In this document: in pieces, positions 4,586 to 23,190 of the stretch
Layout of the letters: every line of letters begins with the position of its first letter
Numbering within the stretch: the stretch's first letter is position 1
Assembly: GCA_905250025.1 (NCBI GenBank)
Contig: CAJNOJ010000319.1
Coordinates: 48,964 to 82,657 of the forward strand
Direction: 5' to 3'
Source: Adineta ricciae
Taxonomy: Eukaryota
DNA length: 33,694 nucleotides
Program-made: the position numbers and the translations under genes
Notes under the pieces: generated by a model
What the model was told of the DNA's origin: nothing
Seen by the model: the letters and a program-made list of their open reading frames with translations, nothing else
Databases searched by the model: none

Positions 4586-6514
4586 TTAATCGCGTTGTAG
4601 AAATGTTTTGATATCAAAATAAATTAATCCGAAAACTGATTTAATCGTTCGAAAATGTTGAATAATTGGATAAATTCCAACAATAGAAAATGAAACAAAT
4701 AACCAAATGATTCCCAAACAAATCCAACAAGTAAAAAATGTTTCGGAAAAAATATACGATGATGCAAACATTGGCCATGGCCAAATGACAATGAAACAGA
4801 TTGTTATTCCAATTGCTAAAAAACAAATGGATCGTGAATTGTCTTTTAAATAAATAATTGCACGTTCAATTTCAACAATTGTTGAATTATTTGTATTTAC
4901 TAAATCATCTTCAATTAAAGCAATTCTTCTCATTGATACAAAATCATAAGGATTTTCATTTGGTTTAATCAAATTCAATAAAGGAATAAATAAACAAGGA
5001 CTTAATAATGCAACAAGATTTCCAATGAGCATTGATAAATTTGATCCCGTTGTTTGAATATTAATTTTTTCAAAGAAATATTTTGTTGTTAATAACCAAG
5101 AAACAATTGAACATATTAAACCCAATAATGGTGAAAGACAAACAGCTAATTTGTTTTGTTTAGTCGATAAAAGTGTGAGTATAACTGGTACAACAGCACT
5201 TGATATGAGAATTCCCATTAATGTATATAAATAACCCATACTGATTGAACTATAATATAAACCAATAGATAAAATAATCATTATTAAGACAAAAATCAAT
5301 AAAGATAAATGTGAAATAAAAAATAATCGTTTTTTCGATGCATTTGGATGAAAATAAGTTCGATAAATATCAAATGTGATTATTGAAGTAACAGCAATGA
5401 ATTGTGAAGACATTGCACTCGTACATGCTAAATAGATCAAAATAAAACTTAATAAACTTCCAGTTTTTCCAAGTAAAACAATTGCAGCTGAAGGTAATGT
5501 TAAACCAGATGTTATTTCATCTACATTTAATCGATTTGGATATGTTGGAAATAAAGGATTTGTTTGAAGTGTTATAGCAACAATACCCATAGTTGTACCA
5601 GTTACAAATGGTATTGCAAACCATGCTAAACCAGCAAGAATATATGCACGTACAATCGATTTTGAAGAAGCAGCAATGACTTTATTATAATATCCATTAT
5701 CAAGAAAAACTGTTCCAAAATTTCCAACAAGATTTATTAAATAAAACATTAAACCATTTCGAGAATTGAGTGTTAAGTAAGAACCTTGAAAATTTCCATC
5801 AACTGGATGATTTAAACTTTCATTAACAAGTAAAGTATAAATTTGAGAAAATGAACCCAATAAAGATGATGTTCGATATGTTACAAAAGTAAAAATGAAT
5901 ATGATGACAACAATAATGACATTATGAATATAATTTGTTAAAAATGTTGCTTTTAATCCTCCAAATATTGTATAAATTATTGTTCCCAATGGTAATAAAA
6001 AACATATTGCAATAATATTCATTCCACATAATGAATGAATAACAGCCGAACCACCTGTTAATAACATTGATGTAACAAGAATATTTGTAAATAAGAAGAA
6101 TAGAATAAATATCCAATGTCCTTCTCGACCATATCGTGCACGAATGATTTCTAAATATGTATGAGCAAATGGTGCTCGATGTTTAAATTCAATTGCAATA
6201 ATTGAAAATAAAATAATTTGAATTGTTGCACCATTTGCGTACCAAAATGCACCGGATATTCCATAGAGATAAGTAACTGAAGTTGATTGTAAAAGTGTAG
6301 CAGCCCATGTCCATGATGAAACAATTGATGATGATAATAAACCTGATCGAATCTTTCGATTTGCTGTTAAATATGTTTCACTTGACATTTGATTTTCACC
6401 ATTGAATCTTTGTAAAAGAAGTGTTATTCCAATCATCATAGAACTAAATAATAATCCAAAACCAATTAATATTATATAACCATCGATTTGTGTTAAGAAT
6501 GATGTTGTAAACAT
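4586..6514 (-). CDS. DUR3: Urea active transporter DUR3 (sodium:solute symporter family); single exon
   Basis: 642-aa intronless ORF with about 14 predicted TM segments. Long stretches closely resemble fungal/plant DUR3: AHTYLEIIRARYG, FTNILVTSMLLTGGSAV, FLLPLGTIIYTIFGGLKATFLTNYIH, HPVDGNFQGSYLTL, LINLVGNFGTVFLDNGYYNK. DUR3 is not a typical metazoan gene family. Confidence 0.88.
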   Translation of the reverse strand: MFTTSFLTQIDGYIILIGFGLLFSSMMIGITLLLQRFNGENQMSSETYLTANRKIRSGLLSSSIVSSWTWAATLLQSTSVTYLYGISGAFWYANGATIQIILFSIIAIEFKHRAPFAHTYLEIIRARYGREGHWIFILFFLFTNILVTSMLLTGGSAVIHSLCGMNIIAICFLLPLGTIIYTIFGGLKATFLTNYIHNVIIVVIIFIFTFVTYRTSSLLGSFSQIYTLLVNESLNHPVDGNFQGSYLTLNSRNGLMFYLINLVGNFGTVFLDNGYYNKVIAASSKSIVRAYILAGLAWFAIPFVTGTTMGIVAITLQTNPLFPTYPNRLNVDEITSGLTLPSAAIVLLGKTGSLLSFILIYLACTSAMSSQFIAVTSIITFDIYRTYFHPNASKKRLFFISHLSLLIFVLIMIILSIGLYYSSISMGYLYTLMGILISSAVVPVILTLLSTKQNKLAVCLSPLLGLICSIVSWLLTTKYFFEKINIQTTGSNLSMLIGNLVALLSPCLFIPLLNLIKPNENPYDFVSMRRIALIEDDLVNTNNSTIVEIERAIIYLKDNSRSICFLAIGITICFIVIWPWPMFASSYIFSETFFTCWICLGIIWLFVSFSIVGIYPIIQHFRTIKSVFGLIYFDIKTFLQRD

Positions 6515-7287: not shown

Positions 7288-7884
7288 TTAACCGGAATGA
7301 ATCTTTTTATTTGTATGATCTCTTGCAGCAATTGCTAAGAAATAAAATTCATCAGGAATTTTATTTGATAAAACTTGTAAATCATATTTATTTTTCCAAA
7401 ACAATGATGAAATTCTTTTATGAAATTTTGCTAAAATTTCTTTATTTGATTGATCAATAAAAGTTGTATTTAATGACGCTGCTTTTCCTTCCATTGTTAA
7501 ATCAATTGAATTATAATTTAAAGTGAATTTATTTCCAACAATTTTATAATTTTGATTGATTGTTCCATTTTTCCATTGATTTAGATTTTTATTAAGAATC
7601 GCAATGGTTCCTTTGTATAAAACAACACTAATCTTTGCTTTTAATAAACCAATAGGATTTTTTTTTGTTAAACCTTGAAATAATTTCACATTATGTGTCG
7701 CACCGAATTTCGATTCCATTCGAAATAAAGCATTTTTACCTTGGGTATCATAAATTGTAAATTCTCCACCTTTCAAACCACTAATTAAATCTTTTTTGAT
7801 TAAATAAGTTCGGTTTACTGCATGAGAATATTCATTACAGAGAAAGAAAAGAAACAAAACCAAAATTGTACTTGTTTGAGACAT
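7288..7884 (-). CDS. Secreted LURP-one-related (LOR/DUF567, tubby-C-like) family protein; single exon
   Basis: 198-aa ORF with an N-terminal signal peptide (MSQTSTILVLFLFFLCNEYSHA). FTIYDTQGKNALFRMESKFGATHNVKLF matches the LOR motif F-V-TD-x-G-x-LF-V...H-D-x-VLL. The C-terminal ILAKFHKR...DLQVL...DEFYFLAIAARD matches the LOR C-terminal conserved block. The family is mostly plant/fungal/bacterial. Confidence 0.45.
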   Translation of the reverse strand: MSQTSTILVLFLFFLCNEYSHAVNRTYLIKKDLISGLKGGEFTIYDTQGKNALFRMESKFGATHNVKLFQGLTKKNPIGLLKAKISVVLYKGTIAILNKNLNQWKNGTINQNYKIVGNKFTLNYNSIDLTMEGKAASLNTTFIDQSNKEILAKFHKRISSLFWKNKYDLQVLSNKIPDEFYFLAIAARDHTNKKIHSG

Positions 7885-9422: not shown

Positions 9423-10679
9423 ATGAAATCGAAAAATTTGTTTTATTATTTGGCAATTACAATTGGAACATCATCATTATTATATCGATCATTTCAATTG
9501 ATTAAAAAGAAATTTTTCTTGAAAAGAAAAGTTTATTTAAATGGTTTATCATGTTCATTTCCATTGAATTGTTATTCTCAAGATGAAATGAAAGAAATGT
9601 TTATTGAAAATTATTGTGGCGGAAAAGAAAATCTTCTGGAAAAAGATTTTGATTTTATTCAACGAGTTTTTCAAGCTTCATGTATTGACACATCTTATGT
9701 GAATTTATCAAAAAATAATTTATTCAAACGAATGAAAAGAGAAGAATATACAAATTATGTTAAACAAACTTTAATTGAAATTTCATGTAAATCAGCGAAA
9801 AATGCCATTGAAAATTGTCTTCATTTAAATTCCAATGAAATTACTCATATTATTTTTGGAACAATGACAGGAACAATTGCAGCACCATCAATGGATATTC
9901 ATCTTGTTAAAGAACTTCAATTAAATTCAAATATAAAACGTTTAAATGTTGAATCAATGGGTTGTTTAACTGGTTTTCGATTAATTGGTTTATGTAATGA
10001 TATTGCATTACAAGATGAAAATAATATTGTTTTATTAATTGTTTCTGATATTCGTTCAGCTTTGGGAAATCAATTAACGCCATTTGAATCCAATCAACCA
10101 ATTGATAAATCCAATGTGATTATTTCTGCACTTTTTCGTGATTCATCTGGTGCAGCGATATTTTCTCAAAAAGCAATTTTCTCCAACGAACTTTCCTATT
10201 GTCACATTTTAAAACATCAATCAACAATTATTCCAGATACAATTGAATTGGGTCGTTTAAAAGAATTCAATGATTCAAGTATTCATCTTTATTTAGATAA
10301 ACAATTGCCTTATGCTGTTTTTGATGCTCTTCCAAATTTTGTTTCGAAATTATTAAATGAATATCAAATTGATATTTATCATTGTCAATTTGCTGTTCAT
10401 ACGGGTGGACCAAAAATTATTCGTGGAATAAAAGAATGTTTAAATTTAGATGATGAACAATTATGTTCATCATGGTATGTAATGACACATTATGGAAATC
10501 TTAGTGGATCAAGTAATCTCGTTGTTTTGGAACATTTTTGTCGATGGAAATATTCGGAAAATAAACCAAATGAAAAAGGAATTTGTTTTCCCAAAGATTT
10601 CAATCGATATAAATATATTGTTGGACTTTCATTTGGACCGGGAATTGCTGTTGAAGGTGTTTTATTCCAATTAGAATGA
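9423..10679 (+). CDS. Type III polyketide synthase (chalcone/stilbene synthase superfamily); single exon with a hydrophobic N-terminal extension
   Basis: 418-aa intronless ORF. The Cys-His-Asn catalytic triad motifs are all present: ESMGCLTGFRLIGL (active-site Cys in the GCxxG context), AVHTGGPKIIRGI (His in the H-x-GG context) and THYGNLSGSSNLVVLEH (Asn in the GN-x-SS context). GLSFGPGIAVEGVLFQ is the conserved C-terminal GFGPG loop. The N-terminal about 30 aa (LFYYLAITIGTSSLLY) look like a membrane anchor. Confidence 0.85.
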   Translation: MKSKNLFYYLAITIGTSSLLYRSFQLIKKKFFLKRKVYLNGLSCSFPLNCYSQDEMKEMFIENYCGGKENLLEKDFDFIQRVFQASCIDTSYVNLSKNNLFKRMKREEYTNYVKQTLIEISCKSAKNAIENCLHLNSNEITHIIFGTMTGTIAAPSMDIHLVKELQLNSNIKRLNVESMGCLTGFRLIGLCNDIALQDENNIVLLIVSDIRSALGNQLTPFESNQPIDKSNVIISALFRDSSGAAIFSQKAIFSNELSYCHILKHQSTIIPDTIELGRLKEFNDSSIHLYLDKQLPYAVFDALPNFVSKLLNEYQIDIYHCQFAVHTGGPKIIRGIKECLNLDDEQLCSSWYVMTHYGNLSGSSNLVVLEHFCRWKYSENKPNEKGICFPKDFNRYKYIVGLSFGPGIAVEGVLFQLE

Positions 10680-10696
10680 GAGAAAAGTCAATATGT

Positions 10697-10768
10697 GCCT
10701 CTATAGCTCAGTGGTAGAGCGCCAGTCTTGTAAACTGGAGGTCCGTAGTTCGATCCTGCGTGGAGGCA
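10697..10768 (+). tRNA. tRNA-Thr (anticodon UGU), 72 nt, no encoded CCA
   Basis: The manually folded cloverleaf has these parts. Acceptor stem GCCTCTA/TGGAGGC. D-stem GCTC/GAGC with loop AGTGGTA. Anticodon stem CCAGT/ACTGG with loop C-T-TGT-A-A. Variable loop AGGTC. T-stem CGTAG/CTGCG with loop TTCGATC. Discriminator A. Internal A-box TAGCTCAGTGG and B-box AGTTCGATCC. It is followed directly by an oligo-T tract. Confidence 0.9.
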
Positions 10769-10782
10769 TTTTCGTTTTTTTT
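10769..10782 (+). terminator. RNA polymerase III oligo(dT) terminator of the tRNA-Thr gene
   Basis: ttttcgtttttttt lies immediately 3' of the tRNA discriminator base. This is the eukaryotic Pol III termination signal and supports a eukaryotic origin for the window. Confidence 0.6.
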
Positions 10783-10836
10783 CTTGTTTTCTTTCTGTCT
10801 ATGTATTATGTTTTTATTTCGAAAAAAGAAAATCAT

Positions 10837-12084
10837 TTATTTTTCAATTGAAACTTTTTTTTTATAATTTTCATAAATCGATTGAATTTCTTCTGAAGAA
10901 ATAATTTGAGATAAATGTTGAAATGGATTTGGAGAACGATGATCAATAATACGAAGAATTTCATCAGGTCCATATTGACGTGCTAAAAGAACCATTCGAT
11001 CAGTTAAAGGATGACGAATACTTTCATAATGTTCAAGTGCTTTATTAGTAATTCCATGAAGAATAAATGATCGATATAATTGTTGAGCATCTAAAATAGC
11101 TTGTGAAGCTCCATTACCTCCATTTGGATACATAGGATGTGCGGCATCACCTATTAATGTTACACAATTAAATGTCCAACGAGGTATTTGATCACGATCG
11201 GTGATTGGAAATTGATTTATATTCATTGATGATTTGATTAATTGTTCAATATCAATGAAATCCAATTTCATTTCTTGAATTAATGGAAGAAAATCTTGAT
11301 GATTACCTTTGTTTGTCCAATCAATGGAATTTAATGATAATGAAGATGAATTTGTTTCATTTTGAATTCTCAAAACACACGCCCAATTAATTAAATTATT
11401 TGATAAAGGATATAAAATGAAATATTTCGTATCTGGATTTCCCATACAAATCATTGTTTTTCCATCAAGATAAGTATTTTCTTGATAAGTTATTCCACGC
11501 CAAATTTGAAGACCTTTCCAAACCGGTAAACCTTCATTCGGATAAAAAATTTTTCTCACACTTGAATTGATTCCATCAGCACCAATTAAAATCTTTGTTT
11601 GAATCACTTTGATTTTATTGATTTTTGTATTTAAAAATTTCAATTCAATTAGATTTGATTTTTCATTAAATTCAATTAATTTATGAGAAAGTTGAATAGT
11701 CGATGGAGAAGTTAATTTTTGTAATTGATAAAAAAGTATTTGATGTAAATATCCTCGATGTACTGAATACATTGGATGAGAATAACCTCCATCTAAACCT
11801 CGAAGATCTTCAAAAATGAATTGACCATGACGAGAATAAAACAACGCTTTTTTTGTTTGAATTCCAACTTGATTTAATTGATTTTCTAATCCAAGTTCAT
11901 AAAGACATTTTACGCAATATGGTTGAAGATTTAATCCAAATCCAACTGTATCAATATGTTCCGATTGTTCAAATAAACGAAGTCGAACATTTAAACGACT
12001 TAAATATAATGCTGTTATTAATCCACTGATTCCTCCGCCAATGATTGTTATATCAATAATATCATCATTGTCAACTGGATTCAT
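10837..12084 (-). CDS. Class A FAD-dependent aromatic monooxygenase (salicylate hydroxylase / UbiH-like, FAD_binding_3 type); single exon
   Basis: 415-aa intronless ORF. It has an N-terminal dinucleotide-binding fold IIGGGISGLITALYL...LFEQ, a DG motif GADGINSSVRK and a C-terminal GDAAHPMYPNGGNGASQAILDA FAD fingerprint. It is convergent with the type III PKS, with only the tRNA between them. Confidence 0.85.
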   Translation of the reverse strand: MNPVDNDDIIDITIIGGGISGLITALYLSRLNVRLRLFEQSEHIDTVGFGLNLQPYCVKCLYELGLENQLNQVGIQTKKALFYSRHGQFIFEDLRGLDGGYSHPMYSVHRGYLHQILFYQLQKLTSPSTIQLSHKLIEFNEKSNLIELKFLNTKINKIKVIQTKILIGADGINSSVRKIFYPNEGLPVWKGLQIWRGITYQENTYLDGKTMICMGNPDTKYFILYPLSNNLINWACVLRIQNETNSSSLSLNSIDWTNKGNHQDFLPLIQEMKLDFIDIEQLIKSSMNINQFPITDRDQIPRWTFNCVTLIGDAAHPMYPNGGNGASQAILDAQQLYRSFILHGITNKALEHYESIRHPLTDRMVLLARQYGPDEILRIIDHRSPNPFQHLSQIISSEEIQSIYENYKKKVSIEK

Positions 12085-12975
12085 TGATTCTCTGAGTGCG
12101 TTTCATTCACTTTTTTACGTATATATCCAATGATACTCTTTTCTCTTTTTTTTTCTTCTGTTCTGTGGATGTGATATGAAGAATGAAGGAAGAAAAAATA
12201 CAACGAAGTATCAATACTGTGGATGTCGCAATCGAACGATTCAATTTCTTCATTTTTTTTTTCGAATAGATTTCTTAGTCTAAGTTTACAAATTATTCGA
12301 TTTAACTGAAAGATATAATCGAACATTAAGTTCTACGCGTAATACATAGGAAAAGAATTTATTCGGAAATCCAAACATGAAAAGATGATTTCTTTTTCTA
12401 ATTCACATTTATTCATTCTCTTGTTTACCTTCTTTTCCAATCGTCGTAGTCAAATGTCTCCCTGGAGATTTCGACAATGGAATCCGTGACATTTTCGAAT
12501 AAATTCCTGTCGGATCCGATCGTTGAATCATTTATCTTCGGATGAAATATCAAATGAATTGTTCGAAGAATAACTTCTATTTCATAGGAATTTTACCAGA
12601 AGTACATCGAATATTTACAATCGAACGTTCATATTCTCTGTCATTGAATAATGTTTATTTTACAATGTGTTCTTTTGATTATCATATCAGATGTTAAAGA
12701 TATTTGCTCAGTAAACCATCATTCTGACTGTTCTTCAATAATTCCATTGTCATATTGATTATGTTATTAGTTTGTGCACAACTTTGTCTTGATTTTAAAA
12801 AACTATAATGAAATGCATTTATGTGAAGCTTTATAATTAACAAAAACATTCCATAATGTACCACATTGACTATTTCATTAGTTTGTGCAATAACTCAATG
12901 TGAAAATCAAATGCGTCTATTTCTTCTTGTTTATTTCCCCTTTTCTTTTGCATGAAAACTCATACATGATCGTCG

Positions 12976-15900
12976 ATGGTTCATAAAAGTTTTCAAATGA
13001 AACAAGCAGATATTTCCACTTTATCATCACCATTGAATGGTAAAATAATTGTACTCGAACTTGGTTATGAAATCAGTTTGAAAAGTAAACAAGAATTAAT
13101 GAAATATTTACGAGAAAAACAAGCACGTATTTCATATATATTGACATCCAGTGTATGCTCACATTGAGTTTTCTATTGATCATATATTTAAAATTGATTT
13201 CTTTAGACTGATTATGTTTTATCTACAAATAATGTCGATACTTACAAAATACGTCGTGCTAAACAACTTGGTTTACCAATAGTTGATGTTGAATATATAT
13301 GGAGATGTCGTTCTTTGTCATCTGATCAAAAACAAATTGATATTAATCAATTTATTATCAAATCAACGGAAGATCAAGAAAATTTTAGAAAAACGGGCAC
13401 TATTTCCGTGAGAAATATTTGTAATTCGTGTTCGATAGGAAGATCTCGAACGAATTTAACTCAAATGAAATTGTGGAATTCTGATGAAGTCGGTTTACCT
13501 CGTTTTGATGAATTAACTCATTGTGAAATTGGTAAATGGGCCATTTTTAAAGTAAATTTTCTATTTTATGATTTTCATAAATTTTTTCTTTTGTAAATAA
13601 TAGGAAACTAATGAAACTTTCGATGTATTTTTTGTTCTTGAACTTCAAGTTATTCCTGAACAATACTACGATCAAACAACAAGTGATTATCGATTAAGAT
13701 TTCGATATGAAAAACGTATTATTGATCAAACAGTGTTAATACAATATGCATTTAGTAATGATTCAAATGAACAACAACAATTATTTGCATCATATTATGA
13801 TCGAATAGCTAAAATGCCACGTATAACACGAATTCGTGAAATATTACATAATCAATTAGGATCAAAATTATTATTACGTGTAAATAAATAGGATTTAGAG
13901 AAAAAAGAAGAAAAGGAAAAATCAATTTGTATTTTTAGTCATTATTTACTCATTGTATTGATACACAAATACTCGATGCAAATGTGTGTCAATTAATCGA
14001 ATCACTTTGGTTGGAATCAATTGGTGATTTAAATCAAATTCTAAGTATAAAACCTGAATCATTTACTCTTAAAACGGTATTTACAAATATATTTATATGA
14101 ATTTATCAATTGAAATTATTAAATAGATTATTGAAGCTGAAGCTGCATTACTTGAACTCAAATTGACCAATGATCCTGCTGTTGCAGATCGTTTTTATTC
14201 ATTAATACCCCATCGATCACAGTATCATATTGATCTTATTAAGAATCGTCGAATATTGATTGAAAAACTCGACTTGTGTCAAGTAAAATTGTTTTTTTAA
14301 ATTTCTTCTCTTTTCTTTCTCAATTCTCTTATTCAGATGCTTCGAGATATGTTAACAGTCAATGAACTAACTAATTGGAATGTAAAAGCATCAATTGAAG
14401 CAAAATATCGAGCATTGAAATGTCATATTGAAACAATGTCAAATTCAACATCGGAATTTAAGAATATTGTGAATCTCATTCAATCATCCAGAAATAGGTG
14501 AGAAAATTGTACATAAAACAATTTTCTTCTTATTTATATAATTATAGTAATGAACAAATTGTTATTCATAATGTATTCAATGTCGTTAAACAGACAGATA
14601 CTCTCAATTTTTGTACAAAATTATCCAATCAACAACAACTTTTTCACGGATCAAAATATTCAAATTTCCTCGGAATTCTTTCACGGTAAAATATTCGTTT
14701 TATTCTTTAGAAAAGATTTTAATATTCCGATGATTATATGTATAAAGAGGTTTATCTATGCCAAAAATGGTAGTTGAAGAATTAGGTGTTGATCGCACTG
14801 ATATTGGTTGTCTTGGACATGGAATTTACTTTTCTAATTCTGTTTCAACATCTTTAAAATATACAACAGCAAGTACAGTACGATCAGGTCGTCGTTTATT
14901 ATGTATTTGTCAAGTGGCACTTGGTGAATCAGCTGATTATTATTCATATTCACCAACACTCATCAAACCTCCTGATGGTTTTCATAGTACACATGGAATT
15001 AAACAAACTGAAGATAATCATTCAATATTTAATGTAAGTTTCAATGAAAAATGAGAATCAATCTGAGAATATTTTCTAAATATTGTGATATGTAGGATGA
15101 TGAATATGTAATTTATCAAGTTGATCAACAACGTTTACTCTACATTGTAGAAGTTTCATGGATATTAAAAAATGAAATTAATATTGAATTAGAACGATTA
15201 TCAATTATTCATGATGAACAAAATCTATTTAAAACAAATGAAATTCCTACGATATTAATCGATGATGATAAAATTACTGAAATAGCTGAACAAGATTATG
15301 GTTTAATATGTTCATCATCAAGACAACTTGTTCCACTTAAATCATTTCATATTCGTGCTCAAATTATCGATACTACAGTTGAAGTAATTCGATCGATTTT
15401 TCTATTGAATTCATTTCTCATATATTTCTATTTGATTTCAAAAACAAAAGGTTGTTCTCTATCAAGTTTATCAAAATCCAAGTTCAATTCCAATTGAAGC
15501 CAAATATGTATTTCCTCTTGATGAAAATTCAATTGTTTGTGGTTTTGAAGCACATATCAATAATCAAATTATCAAAGGTATTGTTAAAGAAAAACAACAA
15601 GCGAAACAAGAATATAAACAAGCTATTGAAAAAGGTCATGGTGCTTATTTAATGCATCAAGAAGAAGCACAAGTATTTAGTGTTGCTGTTGGGAATTTAC
15701 CAGGTCATAATGAAGTTATTATTAAAATAACTTATGTTGCACAATTAGACATTGAAAATGGTGATATTATTTTTCGTTTTCCTGCTAAAATGGCTTCATG
15801 GCAATCGAAAAAAGCGATCGAAAACAAAGATCAATCAATTTTACGATCGATTAGTATTATCGATGAAAAAGTTCAATTTAGTTTGAAAGCATCAATTCGA

Positions 15901-17601
15901 ATGCCATATGAAATATCGAAATTATTTTCACCAACACATCGTCTTCGTCGAAAATTAACTGATTGTACAGCTATGATTGAACTTGTTGATAAGATTTTAT
16001 TTGATCAAGATTTTATTCTTTCAATAACACTTAAGAATCCTAATTTACCTCGAATATCAAATGAAACATCGAATAACGATGATTCTCAAGTATCGATGCT
16101 CACATTTTATCCACAATTTCAAACATTAATGAATTCAAACGAACAAATTGAAATTATTTTCATTGTTGATGTGTCAAATTCAATGGATGACAGTCAGACA
16201 CAACAAGCTAAACAATTAATTCATTTGTTTCTTATGAATTTGAAAGTTGATGATGAAAAAACATATTTTAATGTCATTTTTTTTGGATCAGGTAAGAAAA
16301 GACAATTGTCAAGTGTTATTTTATTATTTAAATTATCAATATTCATTTAGATAATGATGAATGTTTTCCTATTTCAATGTCAACAAAGAAAGAAAATCTG
16401 GATAAAGCCAAATATTTTGTTCTTGTGAGGATAATTTCTCTCTTTTTAATCAAATTTTCGTCTATTGAAATTTTAGCATTCACCTGTTCATCGTGGGAGT
16501 ACAAATCTATTTGCTGTTTTTCATCGTTATTCATTATTACCATCAACATTATCATCGAATTTCGGTCGTCAATTTATTTTATTATCTGATGGACATATTC
16601 ACGATCTTAATTCGATTCTTATTTTACTTAAACATCACCCAACTATGCAACATGATCGTTTATTTACATGTTCAATTGGTAATATCGCAAATAAACATAA
16701 TTTAAAACAATTGACTAATGAAGCAAATGGAGGTGGTTTATTCACAATATTTGATTCAAATTATCGATCAAAATGGAAAATAAAAGTATTGAATATTCTC
16801 GATAAGATTCACCAACCATGTATTACAAATATATCAATTGATTGGCATGGTTGTTTCAATAAAGAACAAAAGTTTCATATACAAGCACCAAAAAGAATTC
16901 GATCTTTGTTTAATGGAATGCGACTTACTGTTTATCGATTCATAGAAAATTGTCATAAGGCAACATTAACAGCTATTGTAAATGGACAAGAATTTGTTAC
17001 AACTGTATTTAGTAGTTCAATGACAACTAACAAAGGAAATATTTTACATTGTTTAACTACACGAGCGATCATTGATGATTATGATAATGGTCTATGGAAT
17101 GTCGATGAAAGTGAAAATGAATTAATTAAAATTCAATATAAACGAGATCTTATTGACCTTAGTATTAAACATTCTGTTATTAGTCCATACACTAGTTTTG
17201 TTGCCATTGAAGAACGTAATATTCAAATCGATCAAAATCATTCATCTTCGATTAGAAATGTTCGTTTACTTGATATTATGCTTGAACGAGATGAGGATTT
17301 ATTACCCTATATGAGTTGGGATGGTGATGTATCAAATTTGACTTTAATCAAACAAAACTTAGCCGATGCACGTCTTTTACTTCAATGTGCATCGTTTCAG
17401 AGTAAAAAGGAAACAATTGCTGATATTGAAAAACTTTGCCAAAAAATTTCGTATCGAACAGGTGGAGATGAAAAATTCAATGCAATGATGACGATCATAC
17501 GTACATATCGTTATTCATTGAGTGAATACGATCAAGCAGATGAAATTGAAGAGAAAATGCGACATGGTATCTCATTTGATTTATTAATAATATATATTTA
17601 A
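12976..17601 (+). CDS. Vault poly(ADP-ribose) polymerase (PARP4/vPARP)-like multi-exon gene: BRCT, PARP catalytic, VIT and vWA domains
   Basis: There are many short introns. A BRCT-like start runs about 12976-13330 (LNGKIIVLELGYEIS...IRRAKQLGLPIVDVEYIWRC). The PARP catalytic exons run about 14100-15130, with the H-Y-E triad in LFHGSKYSNFLGILS, GIYFSNSVSTSLKY and DDEYVIYQVDQQRLLYIVEV. The VIT domain runs about 15440-15980 (VVLYQVYQNPSSIPIEAKYVFPLDENSIVCGFEAHINNQIIKGIVKEKQQAKQEYKQAIEKGHGAYLMHQEEAQVFSVAVGNLP). The vWA exons run about 16140-16900 (IIFIVDVSNSMDD...). The TAA stop is at 17599-17601. A possible extra 51-bp intron (17567..17617) plus the exon 17618..17718 could extend the C-terminus by about 33 aa. 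Individual exon boundaries were not all resolved. Confidence 0.75.
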
Positions 17602-17883
17602 TCGAAAAAATCAATAGATATTATCATCGAAATGATTAATGCAACAGAAGAAGAACGACAAATATTGGAACAACAATGTTTCGCGAATAATTTAATAATC
17701 TCAAGCGATCAATTGTAAATCAAAGACAAATCTTTTTCGGAAAAAAAAATCAATATTCGTTTGTCTTTTAGTAAATTATTGGCTGAACATAATTCCACAG
17801 ACTTTTCAATTGCGAATAATACTAAAATAAGTGTACGTGAGTGAAACTGTAAGACGAAGAATTCTTCTATAGAAATACTCTAG

Positions 17884-18391
17884 GCTGATCAATTGACTGA
17901 AGAACAAATAGCTGAATTTAAAGAAGCGTTTTTTCTATTTGATAAACATGGTGATGGTACAATTACAATAAAACAATTAGGTACCGTAATGCGTAGTCTT
18001 GGTCATAATCCAACTGAAATTGAATTACAAGATATGATCAATGAAGTTGCTGCTGATGGTACGATTTTAATCAATCAAATTTGATTTGCTTCATTTGTTT
18101 TTGTATTGTCAGGTAATGGTACAATTGATTTTCCTGAATTTTTAACAATGATGGCACGTAAAATGAAAGATACTGATTCAGAAGAAGAAATTCGCGAAGC
18201 ATTCAGTGTTTTTGATAAGAATGGTGATGGAATTATATCAGTTGACGAATTTCGGTAACGAAAGAAAGGCAAATGTGCAAATTTATTTATTCTGTTTCTT
18301 TCTTTTTAAAGTCATGTTATGACAAATTTGGGTGAAAAACTCACCGATGAAGAACTTGATGAAATAATTCGTGAAGCAGATGTTAATGGAG
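17884..18391 (+). CDS. Calmodulin-derived EF-hand exons (3 exons: 17884..18058, 18113..18254, 18312..18391); the initiator-ATG exon is unresolved
   Basis: The translation is [133 protein letters not shown]. This is very similar to calmodulin. The introns sit where calmodulin introns are expected, including a first exon that would contribute only the ATG. The Ca-binding loops EF1 (position 12 is Q), EF2 (position 1 is A) and EF4 are non-canonical. Confidence 0.7.
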
Positions 18392-18461
18392 GTATAGACC
18401 TTTTTTTTGTAACCAAAACCCACTGAAATGAATGTTAAAACATGTTATGTTGTGATTTGAG

Positions 18462-19337
18462 GTGTCGATTTGATGGCGTTATTTGGTTCGTATAACCATG
18501 CAACTGATAAATCTGTATCGACTCCCGATAAGTCAAAATCATACGAACGATCTGAGAACATAGAAATATCTCCAAAAATCTTATCATTTGATGGTGAGAG
18601 AGAGGAAAATCTGCAATTTTCTGCAAATGAATCGAAAACTTCATTTTCAGCCAGTTCAGTATGTACATTTTCCATGGAACTTTTTTAAATAAAAATGTTA
18701 TTAACTTTTAGAGAGAACATAATGAGGATGACTTAATAACATTAGCGTCTAAAAGTGTTGAATCAAAATTCAATGTTTGTCCACTTAGTCTTGGAATAGA
18801 AGATATTTATGGTAATATGCATACACTTATTCATCGTAATACAACGATTCCAGTACAAACACAGTTTCATCAAATATTCACAAATGCTTATGCGTATCAA
18901 ACATCAGTTAATATTCGTATATTTGAAGGTGAACATAAACTTACAAAATACAATGTATGTAGTATTGGAACTTCAGAAACTTTTTGAATACAATCGTCCT
19001 CTATATTATAGATGTTTTTGGATGAATTTAGTCTTTCTGGTTTAACAAATAATTTGTTTGATCAAACACTTAAAATAGGCGTTCGTATGAATATTGATGT
19101 CAATGGAATACTTCGTGTTGATGCTGAAGAAGCTTGTTCAGGAGCAAAAGCATCATTTATTCTTTCTTCTGATAAGCCAAGTTCGAGAATTACTTTATAT
19201 GTTCCATATTATCATTGAATGTCATTTATATTTCTATAGGAATGAGCAAAGAAGATATTGAAAAACATATGACATTTGTAGAAAGTTATACAAATTCTAT
19301 AGTTGATGATGATAAATCCAATGATTCATTATATCCG
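18462..19337 (+). CDS. Linker exon plus Hsp70 substrate-binding-domain (SBD)-like exons, phase-compatible with the upstream calmodulin-like exons (18462..18658, 18712..18954, 19012..19180, 19240..19337)
   Basis: REHNEDDLITLASKSVESKFNVCPLSLGIEDIYGNMHTLIHRNTTIPVQTQ...IRIFEGEHKLTKYN matches the Hsp70 SBD-beta block (PLSLGIE...RNTTIP...Q..F.T...VYEGER..TKDN). ...NIDVNGILRVDAEE matches the Hsp70 block DIDANGIL.VSA. ...GMSKEDIEKHM matches the Hsp70 block GRLSKEDIERMV. No Hsp70 ATPase domain is encoded upstream. Confidence 0.55.
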
Positions 19338-19403
19338 GTTTGCATTAGTTTATTTATCTTTATATAAAGTTTAACATTTCACTTTGTTTTTATCTTTTCT
19401 CAG

Positions 19404-20178
19404 CTTGATGGTCAAATTACAAATATAACACATACTTTTTCTGACAAATTGGACACTTCATTCGGTAATTTATTCTTATTTACTATTTTATTGTAATGAT
19501 ATATAAATTTAGATCAAAAAGTTAACGTAACATTTCTTCGAAAAATGAAAGACATTCAATCAACAACAACAATCATTGAACAATTGCTAAAACTTCAATC
19601 TGAAGTAGAAATTTCATAAAATATATTTCTTACTTTCTATTTTATTCGAATCTATAGGATGGTTCATTTAGATTGAATTCCAATTTAGCTGATGTGTTTC
19701 GTATTGATCCTAATAGTTTAAATCATATTGAAATCTATTTAAATAAACAAGGTTTTAATTTACTTGGTAAGATCCAATGATTTTGTTTTTCACCAATATG
19801 AAATTTTTCCTATTCTAAGCTTTGAATATACAAAATGAAATTTATCATTTAATTGGTACGGGTATCGTTCTTCTTTGGTTTATACTTCAACTACCATCTC
19901 TACATCAGTATACAAACCAATTTTTATCCAACATCGAACAAATCGAAGTGAATGAGATTCTTTTTCGAACTATTTATTTTATATTCGAACTGTTTTGTCT
20001 TTAAATCTTTAAGATTGATCTTTGCAACTTTTTTCCTGATAACATAATTGAACATATTAACAAAGCGATTGAATTCTACCGACAAACAAGTCAACGTGAT
20101 GATATTTATTGTAAACAATTGGGATTGGATGATTCATCATGGAATATATTTATTCAACGTATATTTATCGGACTTTGA
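19404..20178 (+). CDS. vPARP/PARP4 C-terminal (MVP-interaction-region-like) tail exons (19404..19464, 19513..19604, 19658..19766, 19820..19947, 20014..20178; stop TGA)
   Basis: KMKDIQSTTTIIEQLLKLQSE|DGSFRLNSNLADVFRIDPNSLNHIEIYLNKQGFNLLG|ALNIQNEIYHLIGTGIVLLWFILQL...|IDLCNFFPDNIIEHINKAIEFYRQTSQRDDIYCKQLGLDDSSWNIFIQRIFIGL* aligns by eye with the extreme C-terminus of vertebrate PARP4 (LLSLQTEDGFWKLTPELG...SFLKQKGIQSLGVKGRECLLDLIATMLVLQFIRTRL...NIPWAFEAIKQASEWV...ICPRLELGNDWDSATKQLLGL). All splice phases are continuous with the Hsp70-SBD-like exons upstream. Confidence 0.6.
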
Positions 20179-20647
20179 CAATGTTAATCACTAACCGATC
20201 ATTGGAATTGATTTTTCTTTCTAAACTTGAATTACATCAAGAATAACTCTCATCTTTCTCGTTTTCAGATCAAAGATGTGAATGTAAGTGTAAGGTGAAG
20301 ATTAACTCATCAATGTGTTACCTGAAAACGTTTTTACTAAGTGAGTTCCGCCCATAAAACCTATTCCATTTAATGCAAAATTAAATTCTAAAACAAATAG
20401 ACTAAGTTTTACAGACTAGACACGACCTATTTAGTAAAATCATTTTAAGCTAATATATCGTTTCGTCAGCTTAATTTCACACTGATAGCGAAAGTTTATG
20501 ACGTAGATGTTCGTCACCGACAAGAGAATCCACTCACTTTTTCTGACATTTTGTCAACATATCGTTTAAAGTTGATATGAAGAATGAGACAAATAGTGGA
20601 CTTCACCATTCAACAACTCATTTTTCTTATATCTTCTTTCTTAAAAA

Positions 20648-21418
20648 ATGAAACAATTCTTTATGGTATTTTTAATTATCATGTTGAATATAAAGAAGAA
20701 TGAATTGAAATGTCTTCAAGCTTGGAATGGAAGTGGAACAGGTGCATGGTATCGTGTAGATACAATTTGTAATTCTTCATTTATCTCAACAGAACTCGTC
20801 AATTGTTTACCAACGATTATTTTACCTTCAAATTTAACAGCGTTTAGTGATGGATTTTATATCAGTTTAGGAGTTTTCAATCGTTTCAATGGAGTTTCGC
20901 TTGATATTGGTTTAACATTCGATTTGGGGAAAAATCGTTGGTTTTCTTACGGAAATGATCGACTGGGATGGAAGTCCGGAAGTATTTCAATTGATTCCAA
21001 TGAAAATCGTTGTATTAATGTTTCTTTAAGTATTTTTAACGATTATATTCATTATATTATTCGAAACTCGAATGGTTCAATTGTTTTAGGTGAAGATAAA
21101 TTTTATTCATTTCAAATTGATCCTCTATTGAATTTAACAAAAAATAATTCTGATTCATTTGGATTTTATCGTTTTGATAGTATTGCTCAAAGTAAAGAAA
21201 CATTGAAAAGTGGTTCTCAACTTATTCATGCGCAAATGTTCAATTGGACGCTAAAGTTTTCTTCAGGAGAAATTCTTCCAGCTAATGAATATAATATTGC
21301 TAAGAATATTAGTGGTTATTCACCAGGTATATGTTGTTCTAATCAAGAAATAAAAACGATTGAAATTCATCAACAAATCAAATGGAATCAATCGGATATA
21401 TCGATTCGATATATTTAA
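20648..21418 (+). CDS. Intronless secreted, heavily N-glycosylated protein of unknown function
   Basis: 256-aa ORF with N-terminal hydrophobic signal MKQFFMVFLIIMLNI, at least 10 N-x-S/T sequons and a C-terminal CC pair. It has no recognisable domain. The coding potential is judged from ORF length in an AT-rich background, where stops are frequent. Confidence 0.4.
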   Translation: MKQFFMVFLIIMLNIKKNELKCLQAWNGSGTGAWYRVDTICNSSFISTELVNCLPTIILPSNLTAFSDGFYISLGVFNRFNGVSLDIGLTFDLGKNRWFSYGNDRLGWKSGSISIDSNENRCINVSLSIFNDYIHYIIRNSNGSIVLGEDKFYSFQIDPLLNLTKNNSDSFGFYRFDSIAQSKETLKSGSQLIHAQMFNWTLKFSSGEILPANEYNIAKNISGYSPGICCSNQEIKTIEIHQQIKWNQSDISIRYI

Positions 21419-21522
21419 TAATCCAAATACTTCGAATTTCTAAATTTTATGAAATTATTTTATTTTCAATATTTTAATTCAATGACAGAATTACAATATT
21501 TAGATTTTCGAATAAAATGTTG

Positions 21523-23190
21523 TCAATATAATTCACTTGTATTCAGAGAAGCATTTCCATTTGATCCACTTGCAACTAATATCGTTCCATCAAGTAAAAG
21601 TGATGCGGTATGAGAATGTCGTATCGTACTCATATTCGATAGTATTGTCCAATTATTTGTTGATGGATCGTATAATTCAGCACTGTTGAGATAAACATTA
21701 TTTTTACTTTGTCCACCTGTTACTAAAATTGTTCCATTCAATAAAACAGTCGCTGTATGAAAGTATCGCGCAGTTGTCATACTCGATGTTGTTATCCAAC
21801 TATTTGTTGAAGGATTATATAATTCAGCACTGTTCAAAGAACTACTGCTACCGTAACCGCCTGTAACTAACACTTTTCCATTCTGTAGGAGAGATGCGGT
21901 ATGAGAATATCGTGCAACAGTCATGTTCGCCACTGTTGTCCAATTTCCCGTAGATGAATTATATAATTCAGCACTATACAGAGGTGCATTATTACTATAT
22001 CCACCTGCAACTAAGACTGTTCCGTTCAGTAAAACTGATGCAGAATGTCTGAATCTTGCAGCATTCATATTTCCTGTAGTTGACCAAGTGTTTATTGATG
22101 GATCATACAATTCAGCACTGTTCACATAACCACTATTAGCAGAACCACCTGCAACTAACACTTTTCCGTTTTGTAAGAGAGATGCTGTGTGATAATATCG
22201 TGTGATGCTCATATTTCTGGTTGTTGTCCAATTACCTGTAGATAGATTGAATAATTCTACGCTATTCAGAGAAGTAACACTATTTTGTCCACCTGTTACC
22301 ATTACTATCCCAGATAATAAGAGAGACGAAGTGTGATAAGATCGAGTAGTTCTCATGTTCCCTGTTATTGACCATGTATTAGTAGATGGATCATACAGTT
22401 CAGCACTGTTAAGAAAAGCGCTATCACTCTGTCCACCTACAACTAATACTGATCCGTTCGATAAAACTGATGCAGTATGTTTGTTTCGGGCAATATTCAA
22501 ATTTTTCATCGTTGTCCATCCTAAAGAACCAAAAAGTAAAAATCAGGTAAATTTACTCAATTAAAACTGTCAAATGTCGAAAGATAAATCGAAGTATTTC
22601 AATTGCTAGAAGATATTTTTCATTTATAAGAGAGTTCGTTATGCATCGATAACTATATAACATCAACATACTATTTATCTATTTTCTGAGGATTTTTCAA
22701 AAAAAAACGAACGACAAGTAATGAAAGAATTATTTCAATTTTGCCTTACCTTTCGGTGACGCAGTTGTTGTGGATGTTGATTCTATAATTTCAGAGAATA
22801 TCATAGAGAAAAACGAAGATTTCTTTGCTGTTATTTTGCTTTCTCGAAGTCTCGTCAAAATTCACTAAACTTACCATGTGTTATTATTGTTATAACGATC
22901 GATGTTCGATTAAGAAATACCATTGTAACATTCGAATAGGATTCAATTGTCAATGAATTATTATTTAAATTGAACAATTGGCACGTTTCATTTGAATGAA
23001 AATAATTGATAAGAGATACTGAATTGTTATTTAAATTGATCATTTGACAAATACATTCATCAAGTGTTCTATTGAAAAAGATCCGCGTTTCAGTACCAAT
23101 ATATGTGTAATCATATACTGTCCCAATGGCGATCGTATGAATTGTAGGTATGTAGAACAGAATCAGACTAAGAAAAATCACGTCTGTCAT
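21523..23190 (-). CDS. Secreted Kelch-repeat beta-propeller protein, 3 exons (22875..23190, 22750..22782, 21523..22520)
   Basis: Exon 1 holds a signal peptide (MTDVIFLSLILFYIPTIHTIAIG) plus a Cys/N-glycan-rich module, donor CATG|GTAAGT. A 33-nt Thr-rich exon (ESTSTTTASPK) follows. The last exon holds about 7 Kelch blades with the motif R-x-x-HTASLL-x-NG-x-VLV-x-GG...LNSAELY-x-PST-x-W. Phases are 1-1 and consistent. Confidence 0.7.

What the first reader, a model, noticed from the sequence alone, without database searches (positions are those of the whole stretch)
9423..12084. Convergent type III polyketide synthase / tRNA-Thr / FAD-monooxygenase mini-cluster: candidate foreign-derived secondary-metabolite module in an animal genome
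Two intronless genes sit tail to tail. One is a type III PKS with an intact Cys-His-Asn triad (MGCLTGF, HTGGPK, GNLSGSS). The other is a class-A flavin aromatic hydroxylase (GADGINSSVR, GDAAHPMYPNGGNG). Only a tRNA gene lies between their stop codons. A type III PKS plus a tailoring hydroxylase is the minimal logic of many bacterial/fungal alkylresorcinol, pyrone and naphthalene-type pathways. Metazoa do not normally encode type III PKSs. Here both genes lack introns, while neighbouring metazoan genes have many 50-70 bp introns. This suggests acquisition from a non-animal donor, possibly as one unit. The PKS has an extra hydrophobic N-terminal segment that could target it to a membrane.
Basis: partly seen in the sequence, partly recalled or inferred. 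Interest (0 to 1): 0.8.

Follow-up and report, generated by a model that had tools for sequence, protein, structure and literature searches.

The report
Two foreign enzyme genes, secondarily adjacent
In the rotifer Adineta ricciae, an intact polyketide synthase gene and a bacterial-type flavin hydroxylase gene sit tail to tail around a tRNA gene; both are old foreign acquisitions, but they came from different sources and became neighbours only in one rotifer lineage, so this is not a transferred gene cluster.

Summary
Window 9423-10679(+) encodes an intact 418-aa type III polyketide synthase (PKS). Window 10697-10768(+) is tRNA-Thr(UGU). Window 10837-12084(-) encodes an intact 415-aa PhzS-like group A flavin monooxygenase (FMO).

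The window is Adineta ricciae, a bdelloid rotifer. The same arrangement sits on a 13.9-Mb A. vaga chromosome, beside intron-containing animal genes, so it is not contamination.

Both genes are foreign and old. Each forms one bdelloid clade (100/100 bootstrap), has host-like GC3 (0.11-0.12) and dN/dS of about 0.3.

The "single unit" idea fails:
- **PKS relatives:** they are eukaryotic or unidentified. A motif scan of 185,579 prokaryote genomes found none.
- **FMO relatives:** the FMO nests among bacterial sequences.
- **Bacterial context:** none of about 158 bacterial-type FMO loci has a type III PKS nearby.
- **Other bdelloids:** A. steineri, Rotaria socialis and two environmental lineages keep the PKS and the tRNA-Thr but have no FMO there. 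The A. steineri FMO lies elsewhere.

The adjacency is therefore most likely a secondary rearrangement in the A. vaga/A. ricciae lineage. Whether the two enzymes work together is untested. The N-terminal helix is real and conserved. This is an uncharacterised foreign enzyme family in a group already known for gene transfer: moderate interest.

The parts
9423..10679 (+). Intronless type III polyketide synthase gene, 418 aa
   Evidence: ORF. Pfam Chal_sti_synt_N/C above cut-off. 100% identical to the deposited A. ricciae protein P0001. AlphaFold2 model has mean pLDDT 93.5. Foldseek TM-scores of about 0.76-0.91 to 2-pyrone synthase, EnPKS1, chalcone synthase and others. dN/dS 0.36 against A. vaga.
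9429..9512 (+). Codons for the N-terminal amphipathic/hydrophobic helix (residues 3-30) followed by a basic cluster (KKKFFLKRK): candidate membrane anchor
   Evidence: Predicted helix 3-30. The segment F.YLA.T.GTSSL.YR is conserved in Adineta and Rotaria orthologues. Kyte-Doolittle 19-residue maximum is only 1.0 here but 1.6-2.9 in several other bdelloid orthologues. Similar N-termini occur in the non-rotifer relatives P0050, P0065 and P0093.
9963..9965 (+). Codon of catalytic Cys181 (TGT)
   Evidence: Aligned to the catalytic Cys of EnPKS1/CHS. Invariant in 40 family members. Coordinates.
10398..10400 (+). Codon of catalytic His326 (CAT)
10497..10499 (+). Codon of catalytic Asn359 (AAT)
10697..10768 (+). 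tRNA-Thr(UGU) gene, a conserved landmark of the locus
   Evidence: ARAGORN. Rfam RF00005, 69 bits. The 72 nt are identical in A. vaga, A. steineri, R. socialis, L095 and L099, always downstream of the PKS and on its strand, 17 nt to about 4.8 kb away.
10769..10782 (+). T-run (TTTTCGTTTTTTTT) directly after the tRNA: probable RNA polymerase III terminator
   Evidence: Read from the sequence. The function is inferred from general knowledge of Pol III termination.
10813..10818 (-). AATAAA on the minus strand, 19-24 nt after the FMO stop codon: probable FMO polyadenylation signal
   Evidence: Read from the sequence. The function is inferred.
10837..12084 (-). Intronless PhzS-like group A flavin-dependent monooxygenase gene, 415 aa
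   Evidence: ORF. FAD_binding_3. NCBIfam PRK07538, 409 bits against a cut-off of 400. Best solved relatives are 2rgj/3c96, E = 2e-61. The GxGxxG, DG and GD motif residues are invariant. dN/dS 0.29 against A. vaga.

Best explanation
This is a chromosomal locus of the bdelloid rotifer Adineta ricciae. Two foreign genes, acquired independently and long domesticated, have ended up as convergent neighbours around a resident tRNA-Thr gene.

Gene 1 is a type III polyketide synthase.
- It belongs to a subfamily otherwise seen in protists, a chytrid, green algae and unidentified eukaryote-like metagenome contigs.
- It was gained before the bdelloid radiation.
- It carries an N-terminal helix plus a basic cluster, which probably tethers it to a membrane.
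- By inference it works as a homodimeric Cys-His-Asn ketosynthase. It would load an acyl-CoA starter on Cys181, extend it by repeated decarboxylative condensation with malonyl-CoA, and release a pyrone- or resorcinol-type phenolic product. Given the anchor, the product may be a phenolic lipid.

Gene 2 is a bacterial-derived PhzS-family flavin monooxygenase.
- It was also gained before Adineta and Rotaria split, and then duplicated within bdelloids.
- By inference it uses FAD, NAD(P)H and O2 to hydroxylate an aromatic or phenolic substrate, possibly with decarboxylation.

The two genes were not transferred together. The likely ancestral order is LOR(-) / PKS(+) / Ank-PARP(-) / tRNA-Thr(+) ... 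AA_permease. In the A. vaga/A. ricciae lineage the gene between the PKS and the tRNA was lost, and the FMO came to lie between the tRNA and AA_permease.

Hydroxylation of the PKS product by the FMO, as in bacterial alkylresorcinol-to-alkylquinone pathways, is chemically plausible but unproven. Shown here: domain identity, intact catalytic residues, fold, foreign origin, separate affinities, purifying selection and the restricted adjacency. Inferred: substrates, products, membrane location and any coupling.
For: Identity:
- Pfam and NCBIfam matches.
- The catalytic triad aligns with solved enzymes and is invariant in the family alignment.
- The fold is confirmed by a confident model and structural search.
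- The FMO's best solved relatives are 2rgj/3c96, E = 2e-61. I identify these as P. aeruginosa PhzS from memory.

Source and linkage:
- 100% matches to A. ricciae proteins.
- A second A. ricciae contig is 99.994% identical over 17 kb.
- A. vaga chromosome CP075497.1 has the same PKS-tRNA-FMO order.
- The neighbouring Tctex-1 gene has a 53-nt intron.

Antiquity and selection:
- The bdelloid PKS clade, including Didymodactylos, has 100/100 bootstrap support. The bdelloid FMO clade also has 100/100.
- GC3 is 0.117 for the PKS and 0.108 for the FMO, against 0.12-0.16 for two neighbouring transporter ORFs (a Kelch ORF is 0.225); dN/dS is 0.29-0.36.

Separate origins:
- The PKS clade is sister to six unnamed sequences (93/100). 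One of them lies on a eukaryote-like contig.
- Named PKS relatives are Plasmodiophora, Irineochytrium, Phalansterium, Coccomyxa and Tetradesmus.
- The PKS motif scan found no prokaryotic relative.
- All FMO outgroups are bacterial, and the scan found at least 599 bacterial loci.
- There are no type III PKS hits in 80 + 80 FMO loci.

Restricted adjacency.

Precedent for PKS-then-oxidation chemistry: S. griseus SrsA, M. xanthus FtpA and M. tuberculosis polyketide quinones, as summarised in PMC10896814.
Against: - No expression, localisation or product data were available.
- The trees are neighbour-joining trees on hits pre-filtered by shared words, rooted at the midpoint, and contain no characterised outgroups.
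- Relationships inside the bdelloid PKS clade are unresolved (clade X 81/200). Orthologue versus ohnologue status of the A. steineri and Rotaria copies is therefore uncertain.
- The prokaryote scan for the PKS required exact family motifs, so it could miss bacterial relatives at about 40% identity. A related 351-aa PKS group sits on compact, prokaryote- or virus-like contigs. A bacterial donor for the PKS is therefore not excluded.
- The N-terminal segment of the A. ricciae protein is only weakly hydrophobic (Kyte-Doolittle 1.0).
- The PKS-FMO pair has stayed together while the right flank changed by 11.6 kb between A. vaga and A. ricciae. This is weakly compatible with selection for linkage.
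Confidence: 0.75

Rival explanations
1. Co-transferred mini biosynthetic cluster. The PKS and its tailoring hydroxylase entered the rotifer genome together from one non-animal donor.
For: The genes sit tail to tail, 157 nt apart, and both are intronless. PKS-plus-hydroxylase logic exists in bacteria. One metagenomic ORF, P0112, even fuses a type III PKS to a FAD_binding_3 domain.
Against: The two genes have different phylogenetic affinities. The motif scans found no prokaryotic PKS relative but at least 599 FMO relatives. None of about 158 bacterial-type FMO loci has a type III PKS in its flanks. The adjacency is absent in A. steineri, R. socialis and L095-L099. The FMO part of P0112 is only 23% identical to this FMO.
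Confidence: 0.04
2. Cluster assembled anew inside the animal. The two genes arrived separately but were brought together and kept together by selection because the FMO hydroxylates the PKS product, giving for example an alkylresorcinol-to-hydroxyquinol or quinone-type membrane lipid.
For: The pair is collinear at 83% nucleotide identity between A. vaga and A. ricciae, while an 11.6-kb block differs immediately to its right. Both genes are under purifying selection. The chemistry has bacterial precedents. The intergenic space is extremely compact.
Against: Only two closely related species share the adjacency. The genes are convergent, so they cannot share a promoter. A. steineri keeps both genes unlinked. 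The FMO belongs to a multi-copy bdelloid family, which suggests broader roles. No expression data were available.
Confidence: 0.2
3. Contaminant or mis-assembled microbial DNA.
For: Both genes are intronless ORFs with non-animal best relatives.
Against: The same arrangement appears in two A. ricciae contigs and on a 13.9-Mb A. vaga chromosome. Flanking genes are animal genes with short introns. GC is 27-28% and GC3 about 0.11, like the host. Synteny with LOR, tRNA-Thr and AA_permease holds across bdelloid genera.
Confidence: 0.01
4. Decaying, non-functional foreign remnants.
For: No direct expression evidence was obtained. dN/dS of about 0.3 is not very low.
Against: Both ORFs are full-length in several species. 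All catalytic and cofactor-binding residues are invariant. The genes persist across bdelloid genera. dN/dS is well below 1.
Confidence: 0.03

Closest known systems
Type III polyketide synthases (chalcone synthase superfamily), e.g. Gerbera 2-pyrone synthase (1qlv/1ee0), EnPKS1 (7f08), alfalfa CHS2 (1bi5), the Dictyostelium Steely1 C-terminal domain (2h84), M. tuberculosis PKS18/PKS11
   Same: Both Pfam domains are present. The Cys-His-Asn triad is intact. The (G/S)FGPG loop and the Phe215 equivalent (F238) are present. The predicted fold matches with TM-scores of about 0.76-0.91.
   Different: Identity to any solved enzyme is only 19-23%. Family-specific motifs are GTMTG, DIRSALGNQL (with a six-residue insertion, SALGNQ, where CHS has cavity residues 194-197) and FRDS in place of FGDG. 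The CHS Phe265 equivalent is Leu289. There is an N-terminal helix with a basic cluster. The product cannot be assigned by homology.
PhzS of Pseudomonas aeruginosa (PDB 2rgj/3c96; identification of these entries as PhzS is from memory) and the NCBIfam PRK07538 subfamily of group A flavin monooxygenases
   Same: Full-length match: E = 2e-61 to 2rgj, and 409 bits to PRK07538, above its cut-off. All three FAD/NAD(P)H fingerprint motifs are present.
   Different: Identity to bacterial members is about 35-41%. No phenazine genes are nearby. The gene is encoded in an animal genome and belongs to a multi-copy bdelloid-specific clade. The substrate is unknown.
Bacterial type III PKS plus oxidising-enzyme operons that make alkylquinones from alkylresorcinols (S. 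griseus SrsA pathway, M. xanthus FtpA, M. tuberculosis polyketide quinones; PMC10896814)
   Same: A type III PKS lies next to an aromatic hydroxylase, with plausible PKS-then-hydroxylation chemistry and a likely membrane context.
   Different: Here the two genes have different evolutionary sources, are convergent rather than in an operon, and are adjacent in only two species. No methyltransferase sits in the pair. No chemistry has been shown.
Horizontally acquired biosynthetic genes of bdelloid rotifers (NRPS/type I PKS clusters; Nowell et al. 2024, PMC11258130) and the type III PKS-like foreign gene of the ctenophore Mnemiopsis (ML18354a; PMC6005172)
   Same: These are foreign secondary-metabolism genes integrated in an animal genome. 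The Mnemiopsis gene is a precedent for a type III PKS gained by an animal.
   Different: Nowell et al. never mention type III PKS or chalcone synthase in the main text. The bdelloid NRPS/PKS genes are bacterial-like megasynthases, and at least one is a recent, GC-rich arrival. The genes here are small, fully ameliorated, and span bdelloid genera (the PKS also Didymodactylos).

Membership tests
Type III polyketide synthase (CHS-like thiolase-fold ketosynthase) | Chal_sti_synt_N and Chal_sti_synt_C domains above Pfam gathering score | tested here: met
   55.0 and 60.1 bits against a cut-off of 27.
Type III polyketide synthase (CHS-like thiolase-fold ketosynthase) | Cys-His-Asn catalytic triad in register with solved enzymes | tested here: met
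   C181, H326 and N359 align to the triad of EnPKS1. They are invariant in 40 relatives.
Type III polyketide synthase (CHS-like thiolase-fold ketosynthase) | Thiolase alpha-beta-alpha-beta-alpha fold closest to solved type III PKSs | tested here: met
   AlphaFold2 mean pLDDT 93.5. The top 50 Foldseek PDB hits are all type III PKSs, with TM-scores of about 0.76-0.91.
Type III polyketide synthase (CHS-like thiolase-fold ketosynthase) | Gatekeeper phenylalanines (CHS Phe215, Phe265) and the GFGPG loop | tested here: inconclusive
   F238 (the Phe215 equivalent) and SFGPG 403-407 are present. The Phe265 equivalent is Leu289. The alignment is uncertain near the SALGNQ insertion.
Type III polyketide synthase (CHS-like thiolase-fold ketosynthase) | Iterative malonyl-CoA condensation on a CoA-linked starter, as a homodimer | not testable with these tools
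   Needs an enzyme assay.
Group A flavoprotein monooxygenase, PhzS-like subfamily (NCBIfam PRK07538) | Score above the curated PRK07538 cut-off over the full length | tested here: met
   409.4 bits against 400; residues 11-413 match profile positions 4-406 of 418.
Group A flavoprotein monooxygenase, PhzS-like subfamily (NCBIfam PRK07538) | GxGxxG, DG and GD fingerprint motifs | tested here: met
   GGGISGL 16-22, GADG 168-171 and GDAAHP 312-317. The corresponding columns are invariant in 26 sequences, which the alignment numbers one position lower because it omits the stop codon.
Group A flavoprotein monooxygenase, PhzS-like subfamily (NCBIfam PRK07538) | PhzS activity (hydroxylation of 5-methylphenazine-1-carboxylate) | not tested
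   Identity is only about 40%. No phenazine biosynthesis genes were seen in the window. Equivalence of function is not claimed.
Horizontally transferred biosynthetic gene cluster (PKS and tailoring enzyme moved as one unit) | Both genes trace to the same donor lineage | tested here: not met
   The PKS groups with eukaryotic or unidentified sequences. The FMO nests among bacteria. Prokaryote motif scans: no PKS relative, at least 599 FMO relatives.
Horizontally transferred biosynthetic gene cluster (PKS and tailoring enzyme moved as one unit) | The two subfamilies are adjacent in donor-type genomes | tested here: not met
   No type III PKS within about 8 kb (or the contig end) of 80 genome-derived and 78 metagenome-derived bacterial-type FMO loci.
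Horizontally transferred biosynthetic gene cluster (PKS and tailoring enzyme moved as one unit) | Adjacency shared by all descendants of the recipient | tested here: not met
   Present in A. ricciae and A. vaga only. Absent in A. steineri, R. socialis, L095-L098 and L099.
Horizontally transferred biosynthetic gene cluster (PKS and tailoring enzyme moved as one unit) | Co-expression and a shared product | not testable with these tools
   No mappable expression data. The gene identifiers in the Nowell 2024 supplements could not be tied to this locus.
Foreign (horizontally acquired) gene resident in a bdelloid genome | No homologues in other animals; nested among non-animal sequences; physically linked to animal genes; host-like composition | tested here: met
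   The only animal hits are Adineta, Rotaria and Didymodactylos. Clade support is 100/100. Linked to Tctex-1, PARP/VWA and AA_permease genes. GC3 is 0.11-0.12.

The most novel reading that the evidence does not exclude
An animal has assembled its own two-gene metabolic cluster from foreign genes of different origin: a eukaryote-type, membrane-anchored type III PKS and a bacterial PhzS-type hydroxylase. Together they would make a hydroxylated phenolic lipid or quinone not otherwise known from Metazoa. The pair would be held together by selection in the A. vaga/A. ricciae lineage.
Probability: 0.15. Interest if true: 0.7.

Novelty: new member of a known kind. Interest (0 to 1): 0.4.

Why it matters
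Bdelloid rotifers are the textbook case of large-scale gene acquisition by an animal, and their foreign NRPS and type I PKS genes have recently been linked to pathogen defence.

This locus adds a third class, not mentioned in any paper my full-text searches returned. It is a type III PKS found in Adineta, Rotaria and Didymodactylos (the last an early-branching bdelloid, from memory). It probably carries a membrane anchor, and it belongs to a subfamily with no characterised member.

If it is active, it would give animals a route to pyrone or resorcinol phenolics that they normally lack.

The comparison across species also gives a caution. Tight adjacency of two foreign biosynthetic-looking genes in one genome does not show that they were transferred together. 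Here the neighbourhood was built secondarily.

Tried and rejected
1. A motif scan of 185,579 prokaryote species genomes with the PKS family alignment found no relative. This is informative, but the patterns are strict.
2. A metagenome scan with the FMO subclade alignment returned only two short rotifer-like contigs (L100, L101). The rest were bacterial. It could not extend the adjacency survey, though it added 78 bacterial-type loci with no PKS in their flanks.
3. I searched the supplements of Nowell et al. 2024 for chalcone and naringenin terms. The hits (AVAG|g61989.t1, ARIC|g21374.t1) carry GO terms or best hits that trace to Dictyostelium Steely and are probably type I PKS genes. They could not be mapped to this locus, so they were not used as expression evidence.
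4. The apparent PKS-FMO fusion P0112 was checked as a possible ancestor of the pair. It was rejected because its FMO half is only 23% identical and its PKS half 34%.
5. I tried to infer the product from cavity residues. Identity to solved enzymes is about 20%, and an insertion falls in the cavity-lining segment, so no product call was made.
6. I tried to use the internal PKS tree to separate orthologues from ohnologues. Bootstrap support was too low (81/200).
7. Boschetti 2012 and the fungal type III PKS survey (PMC6985275) were searched for rotifer type III PKS. Nothing was found.
8. The LOR neighbour was considered as a co-transferred partner of the PKS. No LOR lies near the non-rotifer PKS loci L012 and L013.

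Full report
**1. What is in the sequence**

- **PKS.** ORF 9423-10679(+) encodes 418 aa. It carries both chalcone/stilbene-synthase Pfam domains above threshold.
- **tRNA.** A tRNA-Thr(UGU) gene lies at 10696-10769 by ARAGORN and at 10697-10768 by Rfam (69 bits). A run of T follows it.
- **FMO.** ORF 10837-12084(-) encodes 415 aa. It matches FAD_binding_3 and, over its full length, NCBIfam PRK07538 (409 bits, cut-off 400).
- **PKS active site and fold.** Cys181, His326 and Asn359 align with the catalytic triad of solved type III PKSs. They are invariant in a 40-member family alignment. An AlphaFold2 model has mean pLDDT 93.5. It superposes on 2-pyrone synthase, EnPKS1, chalcone synthase and others at TM-scores of about 0.76-0.91, but at only 19-23% identity.
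- **FMO relatives.** The FMO's best solved relatives are 2rgj and 3c96 (E = 2e-61). From memory these are PhzS of Pseudomonas aeruginosa. The GxGxxG, DG and GD fingerprints are invariant.

**2. Where it comes from, and whether it is really in an animal genome**

Both proteins are 100% identical to deposited Adineta ricciae proteins. A second A. ricciae contig matches the window at 99.994% over 17,253 nt.

In A. vaga the same order lies on the 13.9-Mb chromosome CP075497.1: Tctex-1(-), PKS(+), tRNA-Thr(+), FMO(-). The PKS-tRNA-FMO block is collinear with the window at 83% nucleotide identity.

The flanking genes are ordinary animal genes:
- Tctex-1 has a 53-nt GT-AG intron.
- To the right is a 1921-aa PARP/VIT/VWA gene spread over 7.2 kb.
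- An amino-acid permease split into exons lies further right.

GC is 27-28% and GC3 is 0.11-0.12 for both genes, like two neighbouring transporter ORFs.

**3. Are they foreign, and how old are they?**

*PKS*
- Among animals, only bdelloid rotifers appear in the hit list: Adineta, Rotaria and Didymodactylos.
- In a neighbour-joining tree of 110 relatives, the 44 bdelloid or bdelloid-like sequences form one clade (100/100).
- That clade is sister to six unnamed metagenome sequences (93/100).
- One of the six lies on an 18.6-kb contig that looks eukaryotic: fragmented ORFs, F-box and WD40 pieces, GC 45%.
- Other relatives at 35-46% identity come from Plasmodiophora, the chytrid Irineochytrium, the amoebozoan Phalansterium and green algae.
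- A motif scan of 185,579 prokaryote species genomes found no relative.

*FMO*
- The 28 bdelloid-type sequences form one clade (100/100) with two subclades.
- Every other sequence in the tree that carries an organism name is bacterial.

*Selection*
- dN/dS between A. ricciae and A. vaga is 0.36 for the PKS and 0.29 for the FMO.

Both genes are therefore old, domesticated foreign genes under purifying selection.

**4. Was it one unit?**

No. Beyond the different affinities, three further tests fail.

- **Donor context.** None of the 80 best bacterial genome loci, and none of 80 metagenome loci (78 of them bacterial-type), has a type III PKS within about 8 kb of the FMO, or up to the contig end where that is nearer.
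- **Other bdelloids lack the FMO here.**
  - A. steineri has the PKS, then the identical tRNA-Thr 1.4 kb downstream, and no FMO within 10 kb. Its FMO orthologue is intact but sits on another contig beside P450 and ADH genes.
  - Rotaria socialis has PKS(+), Ank-PARP(-), tRNA-Thr(+), a methyltransferase and AA_permease.
  - Two environmental bdelloid lineages (L095-L098 and L099) have LOR(-), PKS(+), PARP/Ank(-), tRNA-Thr(+).
- **A different pairing elsewhere.** A metagenomic FMO of the same subclade (L009) lies beside an AA_permease gene, with no PKS at its 3' side.

The tRNA-Thr is 72/72 identical in all six loci compared. It is always downstream of the PKS and on its strand. It is a resident landmark, not cargo.

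By parsimony the ancestral order was PKS / Ank-PARP / tRNA-Thr. The PKS-tRNA-FMO arrangement arose in the A. vaga/A. ricciae lineage.

Caveat: relationships inside the bdelloid PKS clade are poorly resolved (81/200). Some of the compared copies could therefore be ohnologues rather than strict orthologues.

**5. How it most likely works**

*Shown.* The PKS has everything a type III PKS needs. The FMO has everything a group A flavin hydroxylase needs.

*Inferred for the PKS.*
- It loads an acyl-CoA starter on Cys181, extends it with malonyl-CoA and cyclises the chain.
- Residues 3-30 form a predicted helix followed by KKKFFLKRK.
- The helix is conserved across bdelloids.
- It is strongly hydrophobic in several orthologues (Kyte-Doolittle 1.6-2.9) but weak in A. 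ricciae (1.0).
- Similar N-termini occur in the non-rotifer relatives P0050, P0065 and P0093.
- A membrane-tethered enzyme that makes or accepts lipophilic substrates is therefore plausible, and the anchor may predate the transfer.

*Why no product is assigned.* The family has its own motifs: GTMTG, DIRSALGNQL with a six-residue insertion in the cavity-lining segment, FRDS, and Leu289 at the CHS Phe265 position. Together with about 20% identity to solved enzymes, this rules out a product call by homology.

*Inferred for the FMO.* It probably hydroxylates a phenolic or aromatic substrate.

*Coupling.* The genes are convergent, so they cannot share a promoter. The FMO has an AATAAA 19-24 nt after its stop codon. 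Coupling of the two enzymes is chemically reasonable, as in the bacterial alkylresorcinol-to-alkylquinone pathways summarised in PMC10896814. The only support for it here is that the pair stayed together while an 11.6-kb block changed next to it.

**6. Comparison with what is known, and novelty**

Foreign genes are abundant in bdelloids. Their NRPS and type I PKS genes have been tied to antifungal defence (PMC11258130), but that paper never mentions type III PKS or chalcone synthase in its main text. A type III PKS-like foreign gene has been listed for the ctenophore Mnemiopsis (PMC6005172). Full-text searches found no paper that discusses a bdelloid type III PKS.

The proteins are already in public databases, named "chalcone synthase" and "FAD-binding domain-containing protein".

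I file this as a new member of a known kind: an uncharacterised foreign enzyme family in a lineage known for such genes. The "mini-cluster acquired as a unit" reading is not supported.

**7. Verdict**

Foreign origin, intact enzymes and the anchor hold. Co-transfer and a conserved cluster do not.
- Interest is 0.4.
- The most novel reading still open is a cluster assembled inside the animal from genes of different origin. I give it a probability of about 0.15, and an interest of about 0.7 if true.

Noticed in passing
window 7288-7884 (-); L001 8517-9104; L002 3895-4485; L095 2378-2965; L099 6522-7121: A LOR (LURP-one-related) domain gene with a signal-peptide-like N-terminus lies upstream of the PKS on the opposite strand. 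This holds in three Adineta species and in the environmental bdelloid contigs L095-L099. It is a more conserved neighbour of the PKS than the FMO is. It is absent within 10 kb in Rotaria socialis and near the non-rotifer PKS loci.
   Followed up: partly
L096 1-11206 (JGI 3300024989): In one environmental bdelloid-like contig, shikimate-pathway genes sit directly beside SDR, LOR and the PKS. They are the pentafunctional AROM, DAHP synthase, chorismate synthase and chorismate mutase. Animals normally lack this pathway, and it could supply aromatic starter units.
   Followed up: no
window 12076-23673: An 11.6-kb block lies between the FMO and AA_permease in A. ricciae. It holds a 1921-aa PARP/VIT/VWA/EF-hand gene and an intronless six-blade Kelch ORF (21523-22509, -). 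In A. vaga the FMO and AA_permease are about 0.8 kb apart.
   Followed up: partly
window 10677-10697; L001 11252-11291: The PKS stop codon is only 17 nt from the first base of the tRNA-Thr gene, and no AATAAA lies between them on the + strand. A. vaga has 20 extra nt there and an AATAAA overlapping its stop codon. Where the A. ricciae PKS mRNA ends, and whether it runs through the tRNA, is unexplained.
   Followed up: no
L008 1502-3406 (Logan SRR23287133, GC 49%): A single 634-aa ORF (P0112) fuses a type III PKS (34% identical to the window PKS) to the N-terminal part of a different FAD_binding_3 monooxygenase. A second FAD_binding_3 fragment follows it. This is a PKS-hydroxylase pairing or fusion in an unidentified organism.
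   Followed up: partly
L013 6969-11052; L014 3382-7465: A related 351-aa PKS (43% identical) is flanked by a plant-type O-methyltransferase and a vanadium-haloperoxidase-like gene. The contig is compact and prokaryote- or virus-like, yet it also encodes CHASE-RGS and F-box-like proteins. This is a possible small biosynthetic cluster in an unknown organism.
   Followed up: no
L011 9128-10822 (A. steineri CAJNON010000012.1): The A. steineri orthologue of the FMO is annotated as two genes (124 aa and 273 aa). It nevertheless gives a single uninterrupted tblastn match over residues 24-386, so the gene model is probably wrong. It lies next to P450 and zinc-ADH genes.
   Followed up: partly
window 4586-6514 (-): A 642-aa sodium:solute symporter is encoded by one uninterrupted ORF with GC3 of 0.12. 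It is another intronless gene in this neighbourhood. Its origin was not examined.
   Followed up: no
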